64,000 nt of DNA, taken from the IMG/VR virus record IMGVR_UViG_3300029787_000021, positions 9,432 to 73,431 of that record; one strand, written 5' to 3'. Source of the stretch: a virus. Under the pieces are notes generated by a model that saw only the letters and a list, made by a program, of their open reading frames with translations, was not told the DNA's origin and did not search any database. Shown here piece by piece: positions 15,839-54,751 of the stretch (the stretch's first letter is position 1; each line of letters opens with the position of its first letter). The translations under genes and the position numbers were made by a program.

Positions 15839-16957
15839 TTATACTCCTGAGCCGGTTATATAAGCTCCTTTTTCATTAGTACCAAATACTTCGCCGGTTT
15901 CTAAGATAAATATCTTTTGACTAGGTATACGTACATATCTCCTTGTGCTTTCATCGTAATCATAAATATGGCTACCAGATGTTGGGTATGTGCTATATTC
16001 CGTAAAAAACTTCTGCCCTACTGAGGAAGAGGTGTTATTAATAATATGAAATATAGGAGAATTAGTTGAACTGCTATAAAATATTCTTTCTGTACCAGTA
16101 TCTTTAAAATTAAAATAAAAAGTTTCTATGCTTCTTTCATTAGGATCAATTCCTACTATTGTAGTATTATCCGCAAATAATTCGTGTCTAGAACCTTGAA
16201 ATGATATAAAAGACAGCGCCGGTGTATCTTCGAAAAAGTCAGATACTTGTGCTGTATCTCCTACAGGGTTGTAGTTTGAACCAATAGCAAATAGTTTTGA
16301 ACCATTATACCTACCGTTTATCCACCCGGTAGAATAGTAATTACTTTCCTGGACTGAAGCTTCTAAACTTCTTGAAGTAGCATTTTCTAAACTTGCAGTT
16401 ATTTGTTCTAGGTTATTAGGTTGTAATTGACTCCTATCTCTATCTACTACAAACCTAAAATATGATTTTTTTACTTCTATTGCATTATTTTCATTTGCTT
16501 CGTATTGACTTAAATCAATTCTTCCTTCTACAAACGGTTCTAAGAATACAGTTTTATCTACAACATTATTACTTCCTGTGATAAGATTATTAAAGAAAGG
16601 ATCTCCTTCAGTATATGTTGAAGCACTAAGTAAAAGGCCGTCATGATCTTGAGCTTCTAATCTACCAAATTGTATAAAGTAGTATCCGGTTTTTCGAGTA
16701 AGGTTAAGGTCTTTAAAATCTAATCTTGACGGACCTTGAGTTAATTGGCCAGACGACGATTGAAATATAGTTAATTCATTTAACTGATTTAAAGCACCTT
16801 CAACGTCAATTGCATTATCACTTTCAAAAGGAATCGATACTGCCCTAATTACATAATCAACTAAAGCTGCTCCAACTATATTAGATGAAGACATAAGTAT
16901 GTTAATTGACCCGTCAGCTGGTTTTTGATTCGAAAAGTCTAGTAGATTAATTGGCAT
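15839..16957 (-). CDS. Putative structural protein
   Basis: 372 aa within the tail module; SGS/TGS/SAS rich. Confidence 0.5.
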   Translation of the reverse strand: MPINLLDFSNQKPADGSINILMSSSNIVGAALVDYVIRAVSIPFESDNAIDVEGALNQLNELTIFQSSSGQLTQGPSRLDFKDLNLTRKTGYYFIQFGRLEAQDHDGLLLSASTYTEGDPFFNNLITGSNNVVDKTVFLEPFVEGRIDLSQYEANENNAIEVKKSYFRFVVDRDRSQLQPNNLEQITASLENATSRSLEASVQESNYYSTGWINGRYNGSKLFAIGSNYNPVGDTAQVSDFFEDTPALSFISFQGSRHELFADNTTIVGIDPNERSIETFYFNFKDTGTERIFYSSSTNSPIFHIINNTSSSVGQKFFTEYSTYPTSGSHIYDYDESTRRYVRIPSQKIFILETGEVFGTNEKGAYITGSGV

Positions 16958-18552
16958 TACTTAATATTGTGTGTTAGGATTCCGTTTGCATAATAAACGT
17001 CATCTGTTTCTACATTTAATTTATATACAGCTCCATTATACGATTCTTCTATTATGGATGTTATTTCAATTTCTTCTCCTGCAGCATTCATAAACTTATC
17101 TCCAAGCTGTAGTTCAGTAGCATATTTAATTATCCACTCACTACCTCTTTTTACTATATGTAAATGAGCTTTAGTAGTTTTTAATAAACCGTTATTAAAG
17201 TTCCATACATACTCTGGGTTTGATGATGTATTGTTTATTACTTCAGCCTCTGTAGCTGTTCCGTCTATACTTTCGTTAGACCATGCTCTTAAAGTATCAG
17301 CATTATCTGAATCTACTAATGTAGGAATATTTTTAGATAAAATTTTATCTCCTACTGATAGGTTTTCTACTGCTGTTGTTGTTCCATCTGCTTTTGTAAT
17401 CATAGTTCCTGCTACAACGCATAAATCTTGACAATCAGCTGCTGATGATACGTATCCGTAAGTACTTATCGTAAGTGCATCCCCAATACCAGTTCCGAAT
17501 CGTAATGCATAATAACCTGATGATAAATATCCGGTACCGGTTGCAGAAGTATATATTCTATCTCCTTGTACAGGATTAGTTCCAGAACCATCATGATAAT
17601 ATGTAGAATAAGATCCTCCATTACAAGCAGCTAATAAAGTTCCTCCAGAAAACATTTGTACAGCAGTTCTTACGATCGGTGATCTAGTAGGTGTTACAGT
17701 AGGTGATGGTGTTGCACTAGGTGATGGAGTACTACTAACTGATACACTAGGAGTTACTGATGGAGTAACGGATGGTGTTACTGACTTACTAGGAGTTTTA
17801 CTCGGTGTTACAGAAGGTGTGCTCTGTGGTGTTACAGATACCGAAGGCGTTTTACTCGGTGTTACTGACGGAGTAATAGAAGGTGTTGATGATACACCTG
17901 GTGTAGAACTTACCGTAATAGATGGTGTAATTGATGGAGTAACAGATACACTTGGTGTTTTACTTGGAGTAACGCTAGGGGTTACTGATGGTGTAACTGA
18001 TGGAGTAACAGAAGCACTAGGTGTTTTAGATGGTGTAGCTGATGGTGTTTTTGTTGGTGTTATTGACACACTAGGTGTTTTACTTGGAGTAATAGATACC
18101 GAAGGGGTAACTGATACTGATGGGGTAGCTGAAGGTGTAACTGATACAGAAGGAGTTGGTGGTATAAAATTAAAGTTATTTGTACACTCGTTTACACTTC
18201 TAAATATAAAAGTATTTACTCCTTGCCCTGAGGTTAGCGTAACTCCTCCGTTTAAATCATCTTTACCTAATACATTTTTATAAGTAGTACTGTTTAAAGT
18301 AACACTTCCTGTTAAAAGAGAAGTACCAGTATACTCATCTACTATATCTGCATATTCACCATTAGCTGATGCTGTATAGTCCCAGCCTCCTCCAGTTTCT
18401 GCAGCTGCATTAGGTCCTAAAATTTTATTTGCTTGAATTTCGGAGTTACAATATACAAAGAAAGGACCTGCATCCTGAATAGCACCTTGAGTACTACCGG
18501 TTGGGGTATCTTTAAATCCTATTACCTTATATTGAAATCCTAAAAAGCCCAT
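16957..18552 (-). CDS. Tail-module protein: Pro/Ser/Thr stalk, small Cys domain, C-terminal Hint domain
   Basis: VTPS repeats; Hint from CVVAGTMI (codon at 17421) to YYANGILTHN-IK. Confidence 0.8.
   Translation of the reverse strand: MGFLGFQYKVIGFKDTPTGSTQGAIQDAGPFFVYCNSEIQANKILGPNAAAETGGGWDYTASANGEYADIVDEYTGTSLLTGSVTLNSTTYKNVLGKDDLNGGVTLTSGQGVNTFIFRSVNECTNNFNFIPPTPSVSVTPSATPSVSVTPSVSITPSKTPSVSITPTKTPSATPSKTPSASVTPSVTPSVTPSVTPSKTPSVSVTPSITPSITVSSTPGVSSTPSITPSVTPSKTPSVSVTPQSTPSVTPSKTPSKSVTPSVTPSVTPSVSVSSTPSPSATPSPTVTPTRSPIVRTAVQMFSGGTLLAACNGGSYSTYYHDGSGTNPVQGDRIYTSATGTGYLSSGYYALRFGTGIGDALTISTYGYVSSAADCQDLCVVAGTMITKADGTTTAVENLSVGDKILSKNIPTLVDSDNADTLRAWSNESIDGTATEAEVINNTSSNPEYVWNFNNGLLKTTKAHLHIVKRGSEWIIKYATELQLGDKFMNAAGEEIEITSIIEESYNGAVYKLNVETDDVYYANGILTHNIK
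17690..18160 (-). repeat. Coding tandem repeat (S-V/A/I/K-T-P)n
   Basis: Degenerate 12-nt repeats such as gatggtgttact and ggagtaacaga. Confidence 0.9.
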
Positions 18553-41819: not shown

Positions 41820-42136
41820 AATTTTTCTTTTACTTCTTTAATATGTTTACAATTTCTATGAGCAATATAACCCCAACAGCTACAACTAAGCTCATTTCTA
41901 GCATTATATCTTACGATATATTCTTCACCAGATCTAGCTGATATAAACTTCCAGACCTTCTCTTCTTTCTCTTCGAATAACTCCTCGAAGGGTTTCTTTT
42001 CCATAATTATATCTTCGAAAGAAGTATCTTCTTCTACAACCGTCCAGGAAGGAACATGATACCGGACGCCGGAGGAGACGGTTATGAATCCTCCGATTCC
42101 GACGTTTGATCTCGGTACCAAATAGGTCTTACGCAT
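41816..42136 (-). CDS. SWIM zinc-finger protein
   Basis: CSCWG...CKHI. Confidence 0.8.
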   Translation of the reverse strand: MRKTYLVPRSNVGIGGFITVSSGVRYHVPSWTVVEEDTSFEDIIMEKKPFEELFEEKEEKVWKFISARSGEEYIVRYNARNELSCSCWGYIAHRNCKHIKEVKEKL

Positions 42137-43016
42137 CTACAGTCCAGGAATGACTATTATACGAGCCTATCAAAGCATCTTCCAATTTAGATATTCTAAT
42201 TTTATCTAGAACATCTTCTCTAGTATGATTTTCATACTTATCAGTTTCTGAGTTCCATCTTCTAATAATCTTCTCTACTTTAAGAGAACAAGATTTACCT
42301 GAGTAAGACATATGAACTATTTTAGCTTTTTTAATTCCACTAACATACCAGTCATATCTTACTTGAACGCTAAATCCATCTTCACGAGTAATATTGATAC
42401 CTTTTTTCAGATCTGAGATCATATTATCTCTTTTGTAATTATCTCTATCAGTTTTTACTTCTTCAATTTCTCTTCTATATTTAACAATCTTCTCAGTAAG
42501 CTTTCTTCCTTTACCACTATATTTCTTTTCACAGGTATTAAGATCAGCTAAGATATCATCTTTAAAATCTTTAATAGTCATAGCAATTTGACCATTAAAC
42601 ATAAACCTTTCTAAATTTTTATCTGAGTATTTATCGCTAGTAGAATAAGTGCTTATACCAATATCAGTATATTCTTTTCCTTTATCTTCATTAGAGGAAT
42701 TAGTATAGATAGTACATAATTCATAACTTCTATATTTAATTACTTTATCATAATCTTCTTTTTCTTCATTCCAAACTTCTTTTTCAAATTTATCACCTCT
42801 ACAAGAAATAGTAAGATAATCGACACCTCCAGAATAATCAAGACCTTCTAAATTAGTTTCGATACCTTCAGTACCTTCAAAATAAGATAATAAAATATCT
42901 TTCATCTCTTTCTCTTGAGAATTCCAATATTCTTTTCTTTGATCTTCTAATTTTTCTTTTGCTTTTCTAAGTTTATCCTCTTTAGAATCAAGAGCTTCAA
43001 AAATGTATTTAGACAT
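42129..43016 (-). CDS. Hypothetical early protein
   Basis: 295 aa following promoter 43044-43076. Confidence 0.7.
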   Translation of the reverse strand: MSKYIFEALDSKEDKLRKAKEKLEDQRKEYWNSQEKEMKDILLSYFEGTEGIETNLEGLDYSGGVDYLTISCRGDKFEKEVWNEEKEDYDKVIKYRSYELCTIYTNSSNEDKGKEYTDIGISTYSTSDKYSDKNLERFMFNGQIAMTIKDFKDDILADLNTCEKKYSGKGRKLTEKIVKYRREIEEVKTDRDNYKRDNMISDLKKGINITREDGFSVQVRYDWYVSGIKKAKIVHMSYSGKSCSLKVEKIIRRWNSETDKYENHTREDVLDKIRISKLEDALIGSYNSHSWTVDA

Positions 43017-46641: not shown

Positions 46642-46674
46642 CTAATATAAGAAAAAATAGGCAGAAATCCAACT
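46642..46674 (-). promoter_or_regulatory. Early/middle promoter
   Basis: AGTTG-N16-TTCT-TATATTAG. Confidence 0.8.
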
Positions 46675-47663
46675 TAAATCAGCTTTATCTGTGAGCTAGC
46701 TCGATAGTTACCTAATAATTCTTGATCTGTTTTTATATCTTTTAATGCTATTCCAGAATTACTATTTATATTTCCTTCTGAAAATGCTGTGTTTATTAAT
46801 GCTAAAGGTTCTGAAAATAAAAAATTAGTATCTTTTATTAATCTAAGTTCAATTAAAGTTTTAAAGTTAGGATGTAAATCATTAGTATACGAACGTAATA
46901 TATAAGCAGCTACGGATATTGGTAATGATTCTAATTCATCTCTAGTAATTTTATACCAACCTGTTTCTCCTTTCCATAATGGAAATACTTGTTCACCTGC
47001 TTTTATATCAACTAATGCAAAAAGACCTACTCCATGAATAGGACTTTGTCTTTGATATGACTTTACAGATGAATCTAGATACTCCATAACATCTAATCTA
47101 TCTTTTTTATTAAATTCTCCATTTGAAAAGTAAGTCCATCCTATTTTGTGACTTGTAGGATACCCTTCTATTCCCCAATCAGTAGGAACTACTTTAAAAT
47201 TTATATCTTTTCTAATTTTACTATATTCATATATTGAAAGAATACACCCTTCATTGGCTATAATTTTACAATGATCCTCAAAAGATTTATATTTATTCCA
47301 TTCTTGTTCTGTTGGTTCTTCATAGAAGAAGTCTAACATTTTCTTTAACTGTTTTTTAGTTTTATGTCTACTAAAGTTTTCATCTTCAGGACAAAAAGTA
47401 TCCATAAAGATACCATCATATTTCATATGTAAATTAGGTAATACGTCTATCCAATCACCATGAAATACATTAACGTTAGGTTTATCCCAACTCCATAATA
47501 ATGCTCTTTCGTATAAATCTTCTCTGATTTCAATTATTGTAAGAGATTTTACTCCTTTATTATAGAAATATTCTGATGTAACACCCCATCCATAACCAAC
47601 ATCTAATATATGCTTATCAGGAGATGTCATCAAATCTAAAACCTCTTTTTCAAATATAACCAT
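46674..47663 (-). CDS. Class I SAM methyltransferase fused to a SET-like domain
   Basis: ILDVGYGWG, TIIEI, YDGIFMDT; then QSPIHGVGLFALVDIKAGE...ALKDIKTDQELLGNY. Confidence 0.75.
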   Translation of the reverse strand: MVIFEKEVLDLMTSPDKHILDVGYGWGVTSEYFYNKGVKSLTIIEIREDLYERALLWSWDKPNVNVFHGDWIDVLPNLHMKYDGIFMDTFCPEDENFSRHKTKKQLKKMLDFFYEEPTEQEWNKYKSFEDHCKIIANEGCILSIYEYSKIRKDINFKVVPTDWGIEGYPTSHKIGWTYFSNGEFNKKDRLDVMEYLDSSVKSYQRQSPIHGVGLFALVDIKAGEQVFPLWKGETGWYKITRDELESLPISVAAYILRSYTNDLHPNFKTLIELRLIKDTNFLFSEPLALINTAFSEGNINSNSGIALKDIKTDQELLGNYRASSQIKLI

Positions 47664-47673
47664 TTATTTTATC

Positions 47674-48015
47674 TTACCATTTTCTGCAACTCCAGTATCT
47701 TGCTTTCCATTTTGGTCCCGGAGTAGAACATTTATGTCTTGCTCTAAAAGATTTACGTCTAGCAGGATTACTTTTTCTAATCCTCATAGTTTTTCTTTTA
47801 GCAGATGTTCCTCCATGACCGAAGTTAACTTTAACTACGTTACCTTTTTGATTTTTAACGTATACTTTAAACTTTTTAACATCACCTCTAGTAGGTTTAT
47901 TAAGTTTTACTTTTCTTCCTCTGTATTCAGCCTCTTCAATAGGACCTAAGGATATAGTATACCCCTCAGCTAATTCTTCAGAGTATACATCCCATTCGTT
48001 AAATTGTTCTTTCAT
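47674..48015 (-). CDS. Basic phage protein with acidic leader
   Basis: Acidic N-terminus to PIEE, then KVNFG...RKSFRARHKC...ARYWSCRKW. Confidence 0.7.
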   Translation of the reverse strand: MKEQFNEWDVYSEELAEGYTISLGPIEEAEYRGRKVKLNKPTRGDVKKFKVYVKNQKGNVVKVNFGHGGTSAKRKTMRIRKSNPARRKSFRARHKCSTPGPKWKARYWSCRKW

Positions 48016-48500
48016 TAGTCGTTTGCTCTATTAAACCTACCAACACAAATTCCTTGAGCGAAATAGTTATTACTATCATTTACTCCCCAATCACCTCCAT
48101 AAGAAATATGAAGTAACTCATGATCATCTACAACTCCAATAGCAGATACTTCAACATAAGCTCCTGTATTGTCAAGACATTTATCTCCTACTTGTATTTG
48201 TACATCAGTTGCAGCAGTGATTGCAGGATCATGACAAACCCATGTTCCGCCTTCTTTATAAAAAATTTGATTAGTTGAACATTTAACTCTTCTTCCATCA
48301 GCAAAGTCAATGTTAACTGTTGGCATAGTTTCTAATACAAATCCAGTAATCTCTTTTTCAAAGATTTCATTACCATGCTCGAAAGAATGATATGCTATCC
48401 AATCCCCAGAAACAAGATCCTGAGCTTTAGATTGACCATTGTGGCCTACTGGTACGCCTCGGTTAACTTGGTAGATTAGTGTGTTTTGTGCTACTGCCAT
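48015..48500 (-). CDS. Stand-alone degenerate Hint domain
   Basis: AVAQNTLI (Cys1 absent), AQDLVSGD, CSTNQIF, IQVGDKC, NNYFAQGICV (no HN). Confidence 0.65.
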   Translation of the reverse strand: MAVAQNTLIYQVNRGVPVGHNGQSKAQDLVSGDWIAYHSFEHGNEIFEKEITGFVLETMPTVNIDFADGRRVKCSTNQIFYKEGGTWVCHDPAITAATDVQIQVGDKCLDNTGAYVEVSAIGVVDDHELLHISYGGDWGVNDSNNYFAQGICVGRFNRAND

Positions 48501-48533
48501 AATATAATTATTTATTAGTTAATTTAAATACAA

Positions 48534-48677
48534 CTAGCTATGTTTAGCTTTAAAGTAAGTTATAAAATTATTAATAGTAGTATTAATAGATGCTTTTTGT
48601 GCATCAGTTACTGAGTATAATGTTCTACTATTTACTTCAGTATTAGCTACTTTTTGATAAAATATTGGCTTCCTCAT
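48534..48677 (-). CDS. Small protein (47 aa) between the Hint genes
   Basis: MRKPIFYQKVANTEVNSRTLYSVTDAQKASINTTINNFITYFKAKHS; late motif at 48682; not in the ORF track. Confidence 0.65.
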   Translation of the reverse strand: MRKPIFYQKVANTEVNSRTLYSVTDAQKASINTTINNFITYFKAKHS

Positions 48678-48691
48678 ATAATATAAATAGG

Positions 48692-50956
48692 TTATTTATT
48701 GTGAACTATAATACCATTGGCAACATAATTGTGATATTCTTTTACTGTAAAATTGAATACTCTTTGATCTGGTTTAGAATCTATAACATCTATTGAAGAA
48801 ATAGCTTTCCATTCTCCGCAACAATTTATCTCATCTCCAGGTTCTAATATACTAAACTCTTCTACATCTGGTTTTAAAGCTTTCCAACCCTGTTTAGTAA
48901 GGAAAGGATGCTCTGGTGTAAATTCAATATTACATATTCCTTCTCCATTAATAGTATATAAATCTCTATCTCCTACTACTGTTGGTTCGATATCTATTAC
49001 TTTACTTACTACCAACTCTTCTCCGTTCCAAGATAATACTTCATCACCAATTACTATATCTTCTATATTTTTTATATCTTCATTAGCTAAACTAATTTCA
49101 GTACCTTCTACGAAACAACAACCAAAACCTCCTGGAGGAACTCTGTTATGAACTAAAAATCCATTAGCATAAAAATTATTATTATCAGCAACTTCATCTA
49201 AATTATATACTGTTTCATTATGAGGATTTTCTTCAATAAATGTAAGTTCATAAAAATTACCATCGTGATTTAAACATTTATCTCCTACAACTAAAGCTCG
49301 ATCTGCAATATTACTTTCAGCTGGTTTATATGCTGACCATCCGCTTCCACTTACATAAAATGGATGATCGAAAGTACAAGTATTAAAATTATCGTTAGAA
49401 AATTCTAAATAAACTACAGGTTGATTATGTTTAGTTTGAATTTGAGTAACTTCTCTTTCCTCTTGTTGTTCTGAGTCTAAATTATAAGTTAATACTGTAT
49501 CACTAATTGCAATATCTTCTATATTTTTAATTAAAGGAACTTCTCCATTACTTAAAGTAATCTTAGTCCCAGCTACAAAACAAGGAGCATTATGTACTAA
49601 AAAGTTAGATCCAGATAATTGATAATTATCATCATCTTCAACATTAATTTGTCTATAACCAGCAGCAGTTGTAGTTACTCCAGTATATCCTTCAGTTACA
49701 GCTTCAAACCCACTACCAGATACCCAAACTGAATGAGTATTAGGAAAGATATTTTGAGCATATTCCCATTCTACTCTATCAATCACTGCATTATAAACTA
49801 AATATGCTTCATTAGGAGAAGTGTATCCAGTTGCATTTGCTGTTTTAATCTCACTAATAATATTATTACTAGCTGATATTTCATAAGAAGATAAAACTAA
49901 AGATCCAGTAGCATGAGAACCATCAGGTAATTGATTTCCTGAGTGACTCCACTCGTACCAGTCTTGATTATCTTCAGGTGATCCACTAACAAAGTATGAT
50001 AATACTGCATTAGAAGCTGATACATCTTTAGCTAAAATAAAATCACCAGACATGCTAATTAAACTTTCACCATAAGGCCATACTCCATAAGTTCTTTCAG
50101 TCATATGATTGGTAGCAAAACAAAACTTATAGTATGTTTCCAATTCACTACTAATATTTGCAGTATTAAAATCGTTTAAACTTTCTGGTTCATCAAAATA
50201 AGCTCCTACTTTATAGTTACCTATAGATACTTGATCTAAATTAGCACCGTAAACAAAAGTAAAATTTCTAATAGAAGTTACTTTATCTCCTTGCTTCTCA
50301 CTAGAATTATAATGATAGTTCTGAATCATTGAATCCTCATTTTTAACTTCATTTATAAAATTATTCCATCTATCAGAAGAACCTGAAGTTGCATGACCAA
50401 TTTTATACATTTTCATAGTCTGATGAGCTTCAGTTGCTTTTTTAGTAACTGCATCAATAATATTATCTGGGTTTAGATTAGATTTATCTATATGGTCTAT
50501 AACTCCAGTTGCTGAGGATGAATAGTAGAATTCAGTAACTTGATCTTCAGCAGAGTTATCACTAAATAACTTAAGTAGGTTAAGTTTACCTTTTGCATAA
50601 GTAGAATCTAATACTGCATTTTCATCATAAGCTAATCTAATAATAAATTTATTATCAGCATCTGAAGGTGAAGTAGGATAAATACTATCTATTTTTTCTG
50701 CTACTGCTGTGAAAGAATGACTATGAGCTGATGCTACAGATGACGATAAATACTCAACGAATTTGTCATGATAAGCATCTTTATATATTACATATACTGA
50801 ATCTATACTCCCAGTCATCATTGATACTATAGGAGTTACATCAACTTCGTTTCCTAAACTAGAGTTAATAAATGAAGTATCGGTATTTATTTCTAATAAC
50901 CTTATGTTATTTGATTCATCAACACAGAAGTCTGATGAGAAAATAGTTCCTTTCAT
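48692..50956 (-). CDS. Circularly permuted ATP-grasp-like domain fused to three tandem Hint domains
   Basis: N-terminal DFCVD..IRLLEINT, later VTKK, MIQNY, SIRNFTFV; three HN-terminated Hint units (50086-49589, 49582-49145, 49117-48698). Confidence 0.75.
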   Translation of the reverse strand: MKGTIFSSDFCVDESNNIRLLEINTDTSFINSSLGNEVDVTPIVSMMTGSIDSVYVIYKDAYHDKFVEYLSSSVASAHSHSFTAVAEKIDSIYPTSPSDADNKFIIRLAYDENAVLDSTYAKGKLNLLKLFSDNSAEDQVTEFYYSSSATGVIDHIDKSNLNPDNIIDAVTKKATEAHQTMKMYKIGHATSGSSDRWNNFINEVKNEDSMIQNYHYNSSEKQGDKVTSIRNFTFVYGANLDQVSIGNYKVGAYFDEPESLNDFNTANISSELETYYKFCFATNHMTERTYGVWPYGESLISMSGDFILAKDVSASNAVLSYFVSGSPEDNQDWYEWSHSGNQLPDGSHATGSLVLSSYEISASNNIISEIKTANATGYTSPNEAYLVYNAVIDRVEWEYAQNIFPNTHSVWVSGSGFEAVTEGYTGVTTTAAGYRQINVEDDDNYQLSGSNFLVHNAPCFVAGTKITLSNGEVPLIKNIEDIAISDTVLTYNLDSEQQEEREVTQIQTKHNQPVVYLEFSNDNFNTCTFDHPFYVSGSGWSAYKPAESNIADRALVVGDKCLNHDGNFYELTFIEENPHNETVYNLDEVADNNNFYANGFLVHNRVPPGGFGCCFVEGTEISLANEDIKNIEDIVIGDEVLSWNGEELVVSKVIDIEPTVVGDRDLYTINGEGICNIEFTPEHPFLTKQGWKALKPDVEEFSILEPGDEINCCGEWKAISSIDVIDSKPDQRVFNFTVKEYHNYVANGIIVHNK

Positions 50957-51582: not shown

Positions 51583-51739
51583 GATCGCAGTCTTTTTTAT
51601 GCCTAAACCATCCACCACATTTACACTTAACGTAGTAGACAGTTGAAGCTATAACTGGGGAGCCAGCAAGGGCAGTCCAAATATTCGGATGCCAATGCTC
51701 TCCACAAAAACCTAATGCATGCTTAATTACTTCTATCAC
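51569..51739 (-). CDS. Small His/Cys-rich membrane protein (56 aa)
   Basis: GTG start; HALGFCGEHWHPN...KCKCGGWFRHKKDCDH; not in the ORF track. Confidence 0.6.
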   Translation of the reverse strand: MIEVIKHALGFCGEHWHPNIWTALAGSPVIASTVYYVKCKCGGWFRHKKDCDHEMH

Positions 51740-52584
51740 TATATTAAAGCTGTTGCTAGTTTAAACAAATCTTGGTTAATTTTAAGATCTTTCTCAAAAG
51801 ACTTAATCTTTCTAACCTTTCTTACTTTAGCACCTCTTAAAGCAGCACTAAATCCTCCTTGAGTAACTTTCTCTTGAACTACGTTAAAGACTTTCCAAAG
51901 ATCATTACCTTTATCTTCATCCCTAGTAGGTTCTAAAATATCCTCAATCGTTTCTTCATCATAATCAAACTTAGTAGCTTCTGGAGTATCTAATTTAATT
52001 CCAGCTCTAAGTATCATAGCATCTAAAGCTAATTTATTTTTTTCATCTTGAGTAAGCTCTCTACTTTTCATCTGATTAAGAACTTCTACTTTAGCAGGTA
52101 AAGATTTTACAGCAGAAGAAACAACGTCTCTAAGCTCTGCAAAAGTATAACCTTTATGCCTTATCTTAAAATCAGAGAACTCTTCATCAGCAATAACTAA
52201 ACCATTAGAACAAACTAATCTATAGATACCTACTTTAAATTGAAAAGCATTAAACCCATCATGAGAGTTAGTCATAATAATTCTAGGAAAAGCATCATCT
52301 CCATCTTTACCTTTTATCATAATATCAGGATTCTGAAAGGATATCATATGCTTACTAAATATAGTAGGACCTCCTTTAGAAGTTCTCATAGTAGCTTGAA
52401 CAGGTTTCCATCCTAATTTTTCTAAATCATCGATAATAGTTTCAGTATTAACATGAAGGTATTTTTTACTAACGTCTGGGTTAGTAGGTTCAGTAGCGAA
52501 TGCTACAGGACACGTTTCTCTAATTTGATCTTTTGAAAGGTAAGTCTCTAACCCTGTCTCGTAAGACTGCATAATATCTGCCAT
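51739..52584 (-). CDS. DUF932/DUF945-family protein
   Basis: NSHDG, GIYRLVCSNGL, RHKG, LWKVFNVVQE. Confidence 0.85.
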   Translation of the reverse strand: MADIMQSYETGLETYLSKDQIRETCPVAFATEPTNPDVSKKYLHVNTETIIDDLEKLGWKPVQATMRTSKGGPTIFSKHMISFQNPDIMIKGKDGDDAFPRIIMTNSHDGFNAFQFKVGIYRLVCSNGLVIADEEFSDFKIRHKGYTFAELRDVVSSAVKSLPAKVEVLNQMKSRELTQDEKNKLALDAMILRAGIKLDTPEATKFDYDEETIEDILEPTRDEDKGNDLWKVFNVVQEKVTQGGFSAALRGAKVRKVRKIKSFEKDLKINQDLFKLATALI

Positions 52585-53762: not shown

Positions 53763-54398
53763 TTATATTCTAGAAATATATTCTTCTCCAGGCTTCTCGT
53801 CATCTTCCATTAAGCCTAATTCTCTTAAATGTTCAATATGATGTTCATCCATTTCCCAAGTAAACTCTTCACCATGTTTTTCTACATAGTCTTCCATTTT
53901 AACTACTTGTTGATCTGTTATAGGACTAACTCCGTATAAAAATGAACAATTATAACATAATAACTCTATATTATCTAAAGTAAAATCTTTTTTATCTTTA
54001 TTTTTATGATGTAATATTAAAGGAACTCTATTATCTATAACTCTTCTTTCTGCAAATCCACATTTATTACATTTCTCTTCTATTACTGCCTCAAAAATTA
54101 ATCTTTCTTTTATCTTCTGAGGATCAAAATGAGTAGAAGGAACTCTACCTTCTATTAAATCCATTAAAGGAGGTGTTTTACCTTTACCAGATAAGAACTT
54201 TGGTATACCTTTACCAGCTTGATTTAAATGCATATCTAATAATGACTTACCTGTCTTATCATCTTTATAAAGTTTAGCATATTTTTTATAATGATTATAA
54301 GATACATGTAAGTATCTAGCAGCAGCTCGATTAGATCGAGTTTGCGACATAGCTCTTAATAAATCTTCTTTAGAAAGTATTTTAGCTGGTCTACCCAT
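53763..54398 (-). CDS. HNH endonuclease with N-terminal HTH
   Basis: RAAARYLHVSY; CNKC...LHHKN...NIELLCYNC. Confidence 0.8.
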   Translation of the reverse strand: MGRPAKILSKEDLLRAMSQTRSNRAAARYLHVSYNHYKKYAKLYKDDKTGKSLLDMHLNQAGKGIPKFLSGKGKTPPLMDLIEGRVPSTHFDPQKIKERLIFEAVIEEKCNKCGFAERRVIDNRVPLILHHKNKDKKDFTLDNIELLCYNCSFLYGVSPITDQQVVKMEDYVEKHGEEFTWEMDEHHIEHLRELGLMEDDEKPGEEYISRI

Positions 54399-54751
54399 TA
54401 ACTATCTTCTGAGTTCATAGTATTATGAATACCTTCTTTTTGAGTTTGATTAGCCGCACTCTCATCTTTATCATAATCTAACATCTCTAAGTCAATATTC
54501 TCTTTTAAGCCAGAACTAGCATTATCCATTTCTGCTAATCTTACAGCTGTATTTTGATCCATAATCTGTATTCCAGTCATTATGTCTTCTCCTGTTCCAG
54601 TTGTATGAAACCTTGCTACTAATGGTTTCTCCGTTGAACAATTGATACAATAGTTGTATCCAAATTTAGTTAGCCTTAATTCAGGCATAGGACTTCCACA
54701 TTTAACACATGGGATCATCTTAAGCTTTTGCATGGGACTTGTTTTTATCAT
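54398..54751 (-). CDS. DksA/TraR-like C4 zinc-finger protein (second paralog)
   Basis: CVKCGSPMPELRL...CINCS. Confidence 0.65.
   Translation of the reverse strand: MIKTSPMQKLKMIPCVKCGSPMPELRLTKFGYNYCINCSTEKPLVARFHTTGTGEDIMTGIQIMDQNTAVRLAEMDNASSGLKENIDLEMLDYDKDESAANQTQKEGIHNTMNSEDS

What the first reader, a model, noticed from the sequence alone, without database searches (positions are those of the whole stretch)
48015..50956. Candidate new protein-ligation system: circularly permuted ATP-grasp fused to three tandem Hint domains, plus a peptide and a solo Hint
Seen: the 754-aa late-motif protein begins with the motif that normally ends an ATP-grasp (DFCVD...LLEINT) and then shows VTKK, MIQNY and SIRNFTFV, i.e. 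a circularly permuted order. Three Hint units follow, each ending in HN. Unit 1 has Gly where Cys1 should be; units 2 and 3 start CFVAG and CFVEG. Residues after the HN are A, R and K, so canonical splicing is not expected, but cleavage or thioester chemistry is possible. Downstream are a 47-aa ORF with its own late motif and a solo degenerate Hint. Known: ATP-grasp enzymes are peptide/amide ligases, and Hint domains (hedgehog, BIL) generate thioesters that transfer the N-terminal part to nucleophiles. Inference: a phage self-processing polyprotein that releases a ligase and activated peptides to tag or cross-link virion or host proteins. I know of no description of this architecture.
Basis: partly seen in the sequence, partly recalled or inferred. 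Interest (0 to 1): 0.88.

Follow-up and report, generated by a model that had tools for sequence, protein, structure and literature searches.

The report
Phage ATP-grasp ligase with Hint domains
An uncultured T4-like phage carries a conserved, uncharacterised gene pair: a predicted ATP-dependent amide ligase fused to three self-cleaving-type Hint domains, and a 47-residue protein predicted to clamp onto it.

Summary
The 754-aa ORF (48692..50956, -) has four parts. Residues 1-285 fold as an ATP-grasp with the strand order of glutathione synthetase and glutathionylspermidine synthetase (VIA Z 9.9). D9, E22, N24, K172 and R230 are invariant. Residues 288-456 are a Hint fold (Z 18.3) with Gly at the Cys1 position but an invariant terminal His-Asn. 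Two BIL-type Hint domains follow (459-604, 614-753) with Cys1 and His-Asn intact.

The permutation is real, but it is that of a known class. The 47-aa ORF is the stronger result. A 43-53 aa ORF follows the main gene in 80 of 80 related viral loci. It is predicted to bind the ATP-grasp/Hint core (ipSAE 0.84, best control 0.02). It sits on the back of the sheet, so it looks like a small subunit rather than a substrate. The 161-aa solo Hint has lost its catalytic residues and occurs in 3 of 80 loci, so it is not part of the module.

The family is confined to viruses: 236 IMG/VR stretches, 1 cellular contig, and no GenBank phage record. No family library names it. Autoprocessing, ligase activity and substrates are all inferred. 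This is a new domain architecture of unknown function.

The parts
50102..50956 (-). ATP-grasp amidoligase domain, aa 1-285, with the strand order of glutathione synthetase and GspS. The Mg-binding-type hairpin (D9, E22, N24) comes first, then K59, R107, D117, K172, R230 and Y236.
   Evidence: AF2 models have pLDDT 91.9 and 91.5. In the VIA search of the domain alone, the top 11 chains are all ATP-grasps of this topology (Z 7.8-9.9, model 1-284). Classical ATP-grasps reach Z 6.1 at most and align only over model residues ~50-286. Foldseek gives YjfC 1.1e-5 and GspS 3.4e-5.
49589..50095 (-). Hint-0, aa 288-456. This is a Hint fold with Gly291 at the Cys1 position and no conserved block-B Thr-x-x-His, but with an invariant terminal His455-Asn456.
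   Evidence: VIA gives Z 18.3, rmsd 1.7 A over 138 residues against 2lwy, and Z 17.4 against hedgehog 1at0. G291 is Gly in 49 of 55 relatives; H455 and N456 are present in 55 of 55. Block B is not conserved. There is no Pfam hit.
49145..49582 (-). BIL-type Hint domain 1, aa 459-604, running from Cys459 to His603-Asn604. An Ala-Pro linker precedes it and Arg605 follows it.
   Evidence: Pfam PT-HINT 7.3e-15 and AXH 2.3e-20. The family profile matches Tetrahymena BUBL BIL2 (6y75) at 1.9e-24 and BIL 2lwy at 3.8e-21.
48698..49117 (-). BIL-type Hint domain 2, aa 614-753, running from Cys614 to His752-Asn753. It is followed by Lys754 and the stop codon.
   Evidence: Intein_splicing 7.9e-17 and Hom_end_hint 8.5e-11. 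intein_Nterm 1.4e-10 and intein_Cterm 2e-10.
48534..48677 (-). 47-aa protein, predicted to be a small subunit or strap of the ATP-grasp/Hint-0 core. Its gene starts 14 nt after the main gene's stop codon.
   Evidence: A 43-53 aa ORF lies in the same position and on the same strand in 80 of 80 related viral loci, with 51 distinct sequences. Y7, K8 and H46 are nearly invariant. The family has 156 clusters of 44-57 aa. The complex model scores ipSAE 0.84 against a best control of 0.02.
48015..48500 (-). 161-aa solo Hint paralogue, catalytically degenerate. It is not a conserved part of the module.
   Evidence: It matches aa 479-602 of the main protein at E 1.2e-10 with 28% identity. It has no Cys1, Gln in place of the block-B His, and ends ..GRFN-RAND instead of ..HN. 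It is present in only L004, L006 and, 2.2 kb away, L031, of 80 loci.

Best explanation
This is a conserved two-gene module found only in viruses.

**Gene 1** encodes an ATP-dependent carboxylate-amine ligase domain: an ATP-grasp with the glutathione synthetase/GspS topology. It is packed against a Hint domain (Hint-0) that has lost its N-terminal thioester chemistry but keeps the C-terminal His-Asn. Between zero and three catalytically intact BIL-type Hint domains follow; this window has two.

**Gene 2** encodes a protein of about 47 aa. Its C-terminal helix packs on the back of the ATP-grasp sheet, and its N-terminal half runs along Hint-0. I read it as an obligate small subunit.

**Inferred mechanism**
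1. After translation the BIL domains autoprocess, by N-S acyl shift at Cys459 and Cys614 and by Asn cyclisation at N456, N604 and N753.
2. The BIL array is shed from the ligase core, or the core is handed to a nucleophile.
3. The mature ATP-grasp/Hint-0/47-aa complex makes an amide bond between a carboxylate (a small peptide, a metabolite or a protein C-terminus) and an amine.

**Shown here:** the folds, the conserved residues, the synteny, a predicted complex, and restriction to viral contigs.
**Inferred only:** ATP use, cleavage, the order of events and the substrates.

The solo Hint gene is a decayed paralogue outside the module.
For: **ATP-grasp**
- The top 11 of 48,161 chains are all GS/GspS-class enzymes (Z 7.8-9.9, 204-233 residues aligned, model 1-284). 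Z then drops to 6.1 for classical ATP-grasps, which align only from about residue 50.
- Foldseek gives probability 1.00 for YjfC, GspS and YgiC.
- D9, E22, N24, T25, R107, D117, K172, R230 and Y236 are invariant in 44 sequences.
- Yeast GS residue 122 aligns to model residue 1. By offset this puts D9 at its Mg ligand Asp130 and E22 near Glu146 (residues named in PMC2845819, passages read).
- Enzymes of this class ligate a carboxylate to an amine (PMC12568646 passages on hGSH synthetase, YgiC/YjfC and Cp1B).

**Hint-0**
- Z 18.3. H455 and N456 are present in 55 of 55 relatives. G291 is Gly in 49 of 55.

**BIL units**
- Of 220 near-full units in 172 distinct family members, 220 have Cys1 and 219 have the terminal His-Asn.
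- Units are positional orthologues: u1 hits u1 in 48 of 54 and u2 hits u2 in 44 of 54. Within-protein identity has a median of 32%.

**Small protein**
- Syntenic in 80 of 80 loci.
- ipSAE 0.85, 0.84 and 0.81 against controls of 0.02, 0.01 and 0.00. Partner pLDDT is at least 89, and the runs share at least 94% of contacts. This mark was reached by 58 of 80 solved complexes and 2 of 110 mismatched pairs.
- Contacts fall on residues 8, 10, 12, 229, 231, 233 and 235, which alternate with D9 and R230 on the same strands. Invariant L130 is also in contact. None of the invariant polar residues is.

**Distribution**
- 236 viral stretches and 375 clusters at 50% identity, with the domain always starting at residue 1.
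- 1 locus in 185,579 species genomes.
- No match in 50,697 phage records.
Against: - No sequence-level link ties aa 1-285 to any ATP-grasp family. Pfam, NCBIfam and PHROGs give nothing significant, and the PDB profile search gives nothing.
- Z of about 10 with rmsd 4-5 A is only moderately above the tool's stated background best of Z 7-8.
- The residue equivalences to GS rest on offsets, not on a residue-level alignment.
- The complex is a model built on my own alignments, so its calibration holds only roughly. A bound pose on the back of the sheet does not exclude the peptide also being a substrate.
- Pro458 directly precedes Cys459. From recalled intein literature, that position is poor for the N-S acyl shift.
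- Nothing here shows that cleavage or ATP turnover occurs.
- Substrates are unknown, and no neighbouring gene is universal that would point to one.
Confidence: 0.55

Rival explanations
1. This is the first reader's view: a self-contained protein-conjugation device. The BIL thioesters transfer what lies upstream of them (the ligase core, or short linker peptides) onto amines of virion or host proteins. The 47-aa protein, or the terminal Lys, serves as tag or acceptor.
For: - The BIL units are closest in sequence to Tetrahymena BUBL BIL2 (1.9e-24). That domain conjugates its N-extein to Lys epsilon-amines without ATP (PMC8616854, passages read).
- Cys1 and His-Asn are intact in 219-220 of 220 units.
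- The residue after each His-Asn is basic. A lone Lys ends the protein after the last unit in 106 of 151 last units; 31 of the other 45 have tails longer than 6 aa. Internal linkers begin with R or K.
- The small protein has a nearly invariant Tyr-Lys.
- A second protein of this phage, next to the baseplate genes, also ends in an intact BIL.
Against: - No target or acceptor is identified.
- An ATP-grasp would be redundant with thioester activation.
- The small protein is modelled as buried along the core, with 44 of 47 residues in contact, not as a free tag.
- Family members with no BIL domain at all exist, at 472-487 aa. BIL chemistry is therefore not essential to the core function.
Confidence: 0.2
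2. The 47-aa product is the ligase's substrate rather than a subunit. It could be a carrier or precursor peptide that the ATP-grasp modifies at its C-terminus or on a side chain, as with LysW/LysX or graspetide precursors.
For: - Synteny is strict, with a gene directly after an ATP-grasp gene in 80 of 80 loci.
- The conserved C-terminal K-H-[S/L/T] and the Tyr-Lys motif could be recognition or modification sites.
- ArgX/LysW (3vpb) is among the structural neighbours, at Z 6.1.
- Neighbouring genes often encode 2OG-Fe(II) oxygenases (46 of 54 dereplicated loci) and radical SAM enzymes (23 of 54), which suit peptide tailoring.
Against: - In the model no peptide residue touches the invariant active-site-type residues, and the helix lies on the opposite face of the sheet.
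- No free 'core' segment is left over.
- The last residue is variable (S, L, T, M, E, I, N).
- The structural nearest neighbours act on small molecules.
Confidence: 0.15
3. The BIL domains are selfish or neutral intein-like passengers, and the module's function owes nothing to them.
For: - Copy number varies from 0 to 3 among relatives.
- Hint domains are common in phage proteins.
Against: - They sit at the C-terminus rather than inside a conserved host motif.
- They carry no homing endonuclease.
- They lack a +1 Cys/Ser/Thr, so they could not restore a host protein by splicing.
- They are old positional orthologues with all catalytic residues kept.
Confidence: 0.08

Closest known systems
Glutathione synthetase (eukaryotic), glutathionylspermidine/trypanothione synthetase, E. 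coli YgiC/YjfC, fungal Cp1B and the 'circularly permuted ATP-grasp' structures 3n6x and 3k1t
   Same: Same fold and same strand order. The Mg-binding-type hairpin comes before the ATP-binding lysines. These are the only chains that align over model residues 1-284 (Z 7.8-9.9). The expected chemistry is ATP-dependent carboxylate-amine ligation.
   Different: - There is no detectable sequence similarity.
- The phage domain is much smaller, at 285 aa against 368-600.
- It always starts at residue 1 of the protein.
- It is fused to Hint domains and paired with a 47-aa partner.
- Its substrate is unknown.
Bacterial intein-like (BIL) domains and Tetrahymena BUBL BIL2 (2lwy, 6y75/6tmm)
   Same: - These are the best sequence matches for units 2 and 3 (1.9e-24 and 3.8e-21).
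- They share Cys1 and the terminal His-Asn.
- They have no endonuclease and are not inserted in a host enzyme.
- BUBL BIL2 gives a precedent for transfer to Lys (PMC8616854 passages).
   Different: - Here the units stand in tandem at the C-terminus of an enzyme.
- They are separated by linkers of 0-10 residues that begin with R or K.
- The array usually ends in His-Asn-Lys-stop.
- No ubiquitin-like domains flank them.
- No activity has been tested.
Hedgehog C-terminal domain and pretoxin-HINT of polymorphic toxins
   Same: A C-terminally placed Hint domain whose role is autoprocessing of the protein that carries it. Pfam PT-HINT scores 7.3e-15 and 1at0 gives Z 17.4.
   Different: - There is no sterol-recognition region.
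- No toxin domain follows the last Hint in this protein; only a Lys does.
- Distant relatives P0117-P0120 do carry a Cys-rich tail of about 30 aa after His-Asn.
LysX/ArgX with LysW (an ATP-grasp ligase with a ~54-aa partner protein)
   Same: An ATP-grasp enzyme encoded beside a very small protein that binds it. 3vpb is a weak structural neighbour (Z 6.1).
   Different: - LysX has the classical, unpermuted topology.
- From recall, LysW is acidic and is ligated through its C-terminal Glu.
- The phage protein ends in a basic K-H-S/L and is modelled away from the active site.

Membership tests
ATP-grasp superfamily | The ATP-grasp fold: a central antiparallel sheet that forms the nucleotide pocket | tested here: met
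   The AF2 model has pLDDT 91.5. 20 of the top 22 VIA hits are ATP-grasp enzymes, with a best Z of 9.9 over 220 residues. Foldseek gives probability 1.00. This is a predicted structure, not a solved one.
ATP-grasp superfamily | Conserved Mg-binding acidic/Asn residues, ATP-binding Lys residues and a catalytic Arg | tested here: inconclusive
   D9, E22, N24, K172 and R230 are invariant and K59 is nearly so. The D9-to-Asp130 and E22-to-Glu146 equivalence with yeast GS rests on alignment offsets only (PMC2845819 passages). No residue-level superposition was available.
ATP-grasp superfamily | ATP-dependent acyl-phosphate ligase activity | not testable with these tools
   This needs an enzyme assay.
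Glutathione synthetase / GspS-type (permuted) ATP-grasp class | Permuted strand order: the Mg-binding hairpin lies N-terminal to the lid and the Lys strands | tested here: met
   Only this class aligns colinearly from model residue 1 (for example 2io7 residues 310-609 and 7uka residues 94-380). RimK, LysX, Ddl and TTLL align only from about residue 50, to their own N-termini.
Glutathione synthetase / GspS-type (permuted) ATP-grasp class | Sequence membership in the Pfam or NCBIfam models of these families | tested here: not met
   No such family appears at E <= 1 in Pfam or NCBIfam. The family profile finds no ATP-grasp among PDB sequences at E <= 10. It works like this class, but it is not a sequence member of any curated family.
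Hint (hedgehog/intein) superfamily | Hint fold | tested here: met
   Unit 0: Z 18.3 and rmsd 1.7 A. Units 1 and 2 pass the Pfam and NCBIfam cut-offs.
Hint (hedgehog/intein) superfamily | Nucleophile (Cys/Ser/Thr) at position 1 and the block-B Thr-x-x-His | tested here: met
   Met for units 1 and 2: Cys in 220 of 220 units across the family, with TFDHP and TPEHP motifs. Not met for unit 0: Gly291, with block B not conserved.
Canonical intein | A Cys/Ser/Thr at +1 of the C-extein, and insertion within a host protein that splicing restores | tested here: not met
   The +1 residues are A457, R605 and K754. Across the family they are A, S or W after unit 0, or the next Cys1 directly, and R or K after BIL units. 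The domains are C-terminal appendages, not insertions.
BIL (bacterial intein-like) domains, type A | An intein-like Hint with Cys1 and a C-terminal His-Asn, no endonuclease, and non-conserved flanks | tested here: met
   The best matches are 2lwy and BUBL BIL2. Units are 140-146 aa long. The type-A label and its definition are recalled, not taken from a tool.
Polymorphic-toxin pretoxin-HINT | A toxin domain C-terminal to the Hint, released by it | tested here: not met
   Only Lys754 follows the last Hint. The tail is a lone Lys in 106 of 151 last units.
Graspetide / RiPP ATP-grasp system | A precursor peptide whose core enters the ATP-grasp active site | tested here: inconclusive
   An adjacent peptide gene is present in 80 of 80 loci. 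In the model, though, 44 of its 47 residues are bound away from the invariant residues. The nearest folds are small-molecule ligases.

The most novel reading that the evidence does not exclude
The module could be a phage-encoded, self-contained protein-ligation machine that joins two activation chemistries in one polypeptide.

- The BIL domains make thioesters at the C-terminus of the ligase core, or of the preceding BIL unit.
- Those thioesters are resolved by Lys amines. Candidates are the conserved terminal Lys, or the conserved Tyr-Lys of the 47-aa protein held next to Hint-0.
- The ATP-grasp then activates the resulting, or another, C-terminal carboxylate for a second ligation.

The product would be a covalently stapled or branched enzyme-microprotein conjugate, or a tag on a virion or host protein. 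That would be a ubiquitin- or Pup-like conjugation route built from Hint and ATP-grasp parts.
Probability: 0.12. Interest if true: 0.92.

Novelty: new variant of a known kind. Interest (0 to 1): 0.72.

Why it matters
- **Two bond-activating chemistries in one protein.** ATP-grasp ligases and Hint domains are two of the few protein modules that activate carboxyl groups for new bonds, as an acyl-phosphate and as a thioester. In the searches I could run, I found no report of the two fused in one conserved phage protein with an obligate microprotein partner.
- **Distribution.** The family is widespread in uncultured large marine and freshwater phages: 236 IMG/VR stretches and 375 clusters at 50% identity. 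It is absent from 50,697 deposited phage records, and no family library names it.
- **An assignable fold.** A sizeable block of viral 'dark matter' now has a testable fold assignment.
- **A genuine microprotein.** The about-47-aa gene is a real, conserved gene of a size that gene callers often miss.
- **Possible uses.** If the BIL array and the ligase cooperate, the module could show a new route to protein conjugation or processing. It could also supply compact parts for protein engineering.

Tried and rejected
**Sequence and structure searches that found nothing useful**
- Pfam, PHROGs and NCBIfam on aa 1-456 and on the 47-aa and 161-aa ORFs gave nothing significant for the ATP-grasp part. 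DUF6664 scored 0.025, below its cut-off. Phage_OMP scored 0.14 for the solo Hint.
- The PDB sequence-profile search with the ATP-grasp alignment returned only S100-A9, at E 0.38.
- The BFVD fold search returned only Hint-bearing viral proteins, and no ATP-grasp plus Hint relative.
- ESM Atlas gave leads only: unnamed clusters at 0.92-0.93, ATP-grasp families at 0.90-0.91 and GshA at 0.88.

**Searches for relatives**
- A single-sequence scan of viral contigs found nothing. The alignment-based scan worked.
- tblastn of the whole protein against GenBank phages hit only the Hint parts, in 9 records. The ATP-grasp part and the 47-aa protein had no match at E <= 0.01.
- The search for a longer, fused form of the 47-aa protein found none. 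The tool itself says this is weak evidence.

**Context and alternative readings**
- Neighbour clustering found no universal third gene.
- I considered a readthrough or frameshift fusion of the two genes and rejected it. The gap is 14 nt here, which is out of frame, and it varies from 0 to 100 nt among loci.
- I considered recent tandem duplication of the BIL units and rejected it.
- The 'late promoter' label for CTATTTATAT is not established. It has 5 matches against 1.9 expected, and 3 of 100 shuffles reach 5.

**Tools and papers I could not use**
- PMC3268129 (Iyer et al. 2009, amidoligases) is not held. I did not read it, and it may bear on the novelty claim.
- Supplements were not consulted.

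Full report
**What is there**

The window is part of a 73-kb IMG/VR virus record that CheckV estimates at 44% complete. Nearly all genes lie on the - strand, and GC is about 30%. Baseplate-wedge and tail-fibre PHROGs at 18.6-25.8 kb mark it as a T4-like myovirus.

The three ORFs of the finding are real:
- 754 aa at 48692..50956
- 47 aa at 48534..48677, starting 14 nt after the first gene's stop codon
- 161 aa at 48015..48500

**The two C-terminal Hint domains**

Pfam and NCBIfam place Hint/intein models on aa 457-604 and 611-754, above their thresholds. The scores are PT-HINT 7.3e-15, Intein_splicing 7.9e-17, intein_Nterm 1.4e-10 and intein_Cterm 2e-10.

A family profile matches solved structures best at the BIL2 domain of the Tetrahymena BUBL locus (6y75/6tmm, 1.9e-24) and at the Clostridium thermocellum bacterial intein-like domain (2lwy, 3.8e-21).

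The units run from C459 to H603-N604 and from C614 to H752-N753. The junctions read HN-AP-C, HN-RVPPGGFGC-C and HN-K-stop.

**The N-terminal 456 residues**

No library names this part. A word-indexed search found 138 relatives. They are all unnamed and fall into length classes of about 472-490, 600-645, 720-790 and 950-968 aa.

An AF2 model built on 55 aligned sequences is confident, with pLDDT 91.9 and pTM 0.84. It splits into two domains.

*Residues 288-456* are a Hint fold:
- Z 18.3 and rmsd 1.7 A over 138 residues against 2lwy
- Z 17.4 against the hedgehog autoprocessing domain
- 28 Hint-domain structures at Z 10.1 or more

Position 1 of the inteins aligns to G291, which is Gly in 49 of 55 relatives, His in 5 and Ala in 1. 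The block-B Thr-x-x-His is not conserved. The terminal H455-N456 is invariant in 55 of 55.

*Residues 1-285* are an ATP-grasp. I folded this part alone (pLDDT 91.5) and compared it with 48,161 chains.
- The top 11 are all enzymes of one class: eukaryotic glutathione and homoglutathione synthetases, YgiC, GspS, trypanothione synthetase, Cp1B, 3k1t and 3n6x. They score Z 7.8-9.9 with 204-233 residues aligned, always across model residues 1-284.
- Classical ATP-grasps (ArgX, TTLL, RimK, LysX, ITPK1, Ddl, PurK) follow at Z 6.1 or less. They align only from about model residue 50, to their own N-termini.

That is the signature of a circular permutation relative to the classical order. It is also the same order as in the GS/GspS class.

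The reference list of PMC2845819 (passages read) cites the 1999 paper that named a 'rare gene permutation event' in human GS. I did not read that paper.

D9, E22, N24, T25, R107, D117, K172, R230 and Y236 are invariant in 44 sequences. Yeast GS residue 122 aligns to model residue 1. By offset, D9 then falls on its Mg ligand Asp130 and E22 near Glu146 (PMC2845819 passages). This offset was not checked residue by residue.

*Caveats:*
- Z of about 10 is only moderately above the aligner's stated background.
- There is no sequence-level link to any ATP-grasp family.
- The ESM Atlas gives leads only.

**The family and its architecture**

An exhaustive profile search with the ATP-grasp part found 375 clusters at 50% identity with E <= 1e-3, of which 294 have E <= 1e-10. 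In all 150 listed hits that are not truncated at the N-terminus, the domain starts at residue 1.

The distribution across collections:
- In IMG/VR, 236 stretches encode a relative, on contigs of up to 326 kb.
- In one genome for each of 185,579 prokaryote species, only a 2.8-kb contig of a Cyanobium MAG does.
- In 50,697 GenBank phage records, neither the ATP-grasp part nor the 47-aa protein has any match.

I scanned 172 distinct family members with a crude HMM built from the window's two units. It finds 0 BIL units in 14 members, 1 in 94, 2 in 59 and 3 in 5. These are lower bounds, because 31 last units have tails longer than 6 aa.

Of the 227 domain hits, 220 cover nearly the whole HMM.
- All 220 start with Cys, and 219 end in His-Asn.
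- The tail after the last unit is a single Lys in 106 of 151 last units.
- The linker from Hint-0 to the first BIL is Ala-Pro in 57 and absent in 27.
- Internal linkers begin with Arg or Lys.

Units are positional orthologues rather than recent duplicates. Within-protein identity has a median of 32% and a maximum of 48%. The best outside hit of unit 1 is another unit 1 in 48 of 54, and of unit 2 another unit 2 in 44 of 54.

Members without a BIL end in His-Asn plus 5-10 residues. Four distant members end in His-Asn plus a Cys-rich tail of about 30 aa.

**The 47-aa gene**

By BLAST, 52 of 80 related loci have a homologue directly downstream. By position, all 80 have a 43-53 aa ORF on the same strand, starting 0-100 nt after the stop and mostly under 25 nt. 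There are 51 distinct sequences.

The consensus is M..P..YK......NRT...L....K..V..I...F..YFKAKHS, with Y7, K8 and H46 nearly invariant. A profile finds 156 clusters of 44-57 aa and no longer fused form.

A complex prediction of aa 1-456 with the peptide, using both alignments, gave:
- ipSAE of 0.85, 0.84 and 0.81, against 0.02, 0.01 and 0.00 for three controls
- partner pLDDT of at least 89
- at least 94% of contacts shared between runs

The tool's mark was reached by 58 of 80 solved complexes and 2 of 110 mismatched pairs. That calibration holds only roughly with my own alignments.

In the model, 44 of the 47 residues touch the enzyme. The C-terminal helix lies on residues 8, 10, 12, 20, 229, 231, 233 and 235 and on helix 127-139. 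Those strand residues alternate with D9 and R230, so the helix is on the face opposite the predicted active site. The N-terminal half runs along Hint-0, at 293-308, 367-381, 400-405 and 423-432. None of the invariant polar residues is in the contact list, but invariant L130 is.

I read this as a small structural subunit that straps the two domains together. The model supports binding; it does not show it.

**The solo Hint**

The 161-aa ORF is a paralogue of BIL unit 1, at E 1.2e-10. It lacks Cys1, has Gln for the block-B His, and ends ..GRFNRAND. Among the 80 loci it is found only in the two 69%-identical relatives and, 2.2 kb away, in L031. It is not part of the conserved module.

**Context**

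In 54 dereplicated loci the neighbours are typical of the accessory islands of marine T4-like phages:
- 2OG-Fe(II) oxygenases in 46 loci
- radical SAM enzymes in 23
- SET-domain proteins in 17
- carbamoyltransferase in 17
- GDSL hydrolase in 14

None of these is universal.

TATTTAT precedes 14 of 90 ORFs, including both module genes and the other Hint-bearing gene. Its timing is unknown.

**How it most likely works**

*Shown here:*
- the folds
- the invariant residues
- the synteny
- a predicted complex
- restriction to viral contigs

*Inferred:*
- The ATP-grasp is an active carboxylate-amine ligase. This is the chemistry of all its structural neighbours (PMC12568646 passages name hGSH synthetase and the peptide-spermidine ligases YgiC/YjfC).
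- Hint-0 keeps only Asn-cyclisation capacity.
- The BIL units autoprocess by N-S acyl shift and Asn cyclisation.

No unit has a +1 Cys, Ser or Thr, so canonical splicing is excluded. What remains is cleavage, or transfer to another nucleophile. The BUBL BIL2 precedent of isopeptide formation on Lys (PMC8616854 passages) makes the conserved basic +1 residues and the terminal Lys worth testing.

Core-only members exist, so I take the ligase/Hint-0/47-aa complex as the functional core and the BIL array as a processing or delivery accessory.

**Novelty**

Each part belongs to a known superfamily, and the permutation is of a known type. What I could not find described is the combination of four things:
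- an ATP-grasp
- a Cys-less Hint
- a tandem BIL array
- an obligate microprotein

The literature searches were:
- 'ATP-grasp' + 'Hint domain' + 'phage': 2 papers. I read passages of one, which were unrelated. For the other I saw only the listing.
- 'Hint domain' + 'cyanophage': 1 paper, listing only.
- 'intein-like' + 'ATP-grasp' + 'fused': 0 papers.
- 'circularly permuted ATP-grasp': 3 listings.

The key amidoligase survey (Iyer et al. 2009) is not held, so I could not check it.

Noticed in passing
window 16957..18552 (-), 531 aa: This is a second protein of the phage that ends in an apparently intact BIL-type Hint domain (LCVVAGT ... ILTHN-IK-stop). Pfam PT-HINT scores 4e-5, below its cut-off. 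The match to the main protein's unit is E 1e-7. Its N-terminal part shares phrog_15511 with the adjacent 1285-aa tail-fibre/baseplate-like protein. It also has ATATTTATA upstream. A structural protein with a C-terminal autoprocessing Hint suggests that this phage uses BIL domains more generally.
   Followed up: partly
proteins P0117-P0120 (488-507 aa): These distant family members have the ATP-grasp and Hint-0. They end in His-Asn followed by a tail of about 30 residues holding 8-10 Cys (a C..C....C..C pattern). The tail would be freed by Asn cyclisation. It may be a released Cys-rich peptide.
   Followed up: no
proteins P0070 and P0080, and L079:6001-7827 (604-608 aa): These variants have a C-terminal domain that the BIL HMM does not recognise. 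The precomputed Pfam for P0070 and P0080 is Vint. They do not end in His-Asn-Lys; two of them end ..KHL, which resembles the C-terminus of the 47-aa protein.
   Followed up: no
window upstream of ORFs 51739..52584, 42129..43016 and 54398..54751 (-): A longer shared upstream motif, TTCGTATATTTAT(A/G), lies 26-28 nt before three start codons. It is distinct from the short CTATTTATAT context of the module genes. It may mark a different promoter class.
   Followed up: no
window 46674..47663 (-), 329 aa: This ORF fuses an N-terminal class-I methyltransferase-like region (RrnaAD 1.2e-5) with a C-terminal SET-like region (0.0073, below cut-off). In relative L004 the two parts are separate ORFs. SET-like ORFs follow the module in 17 of 54 loci.
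   Followed up: partly
window 47674..48015 (-), 113 aa: This is a very basic protein with a Lys/Arg-rich C-terminal half, directly downstream of the solo Hint. It has no Pfam hit.
   Followed up: no
window 51739..52584 (-), 281 aa: This is a DUF932 protein (6.4e-33). It is the only stretch of the 12-kb region with nucleotide similarity to deposited phages: 73.7% to the Flavobacterium 'immuto' phages.
   Followed up: no
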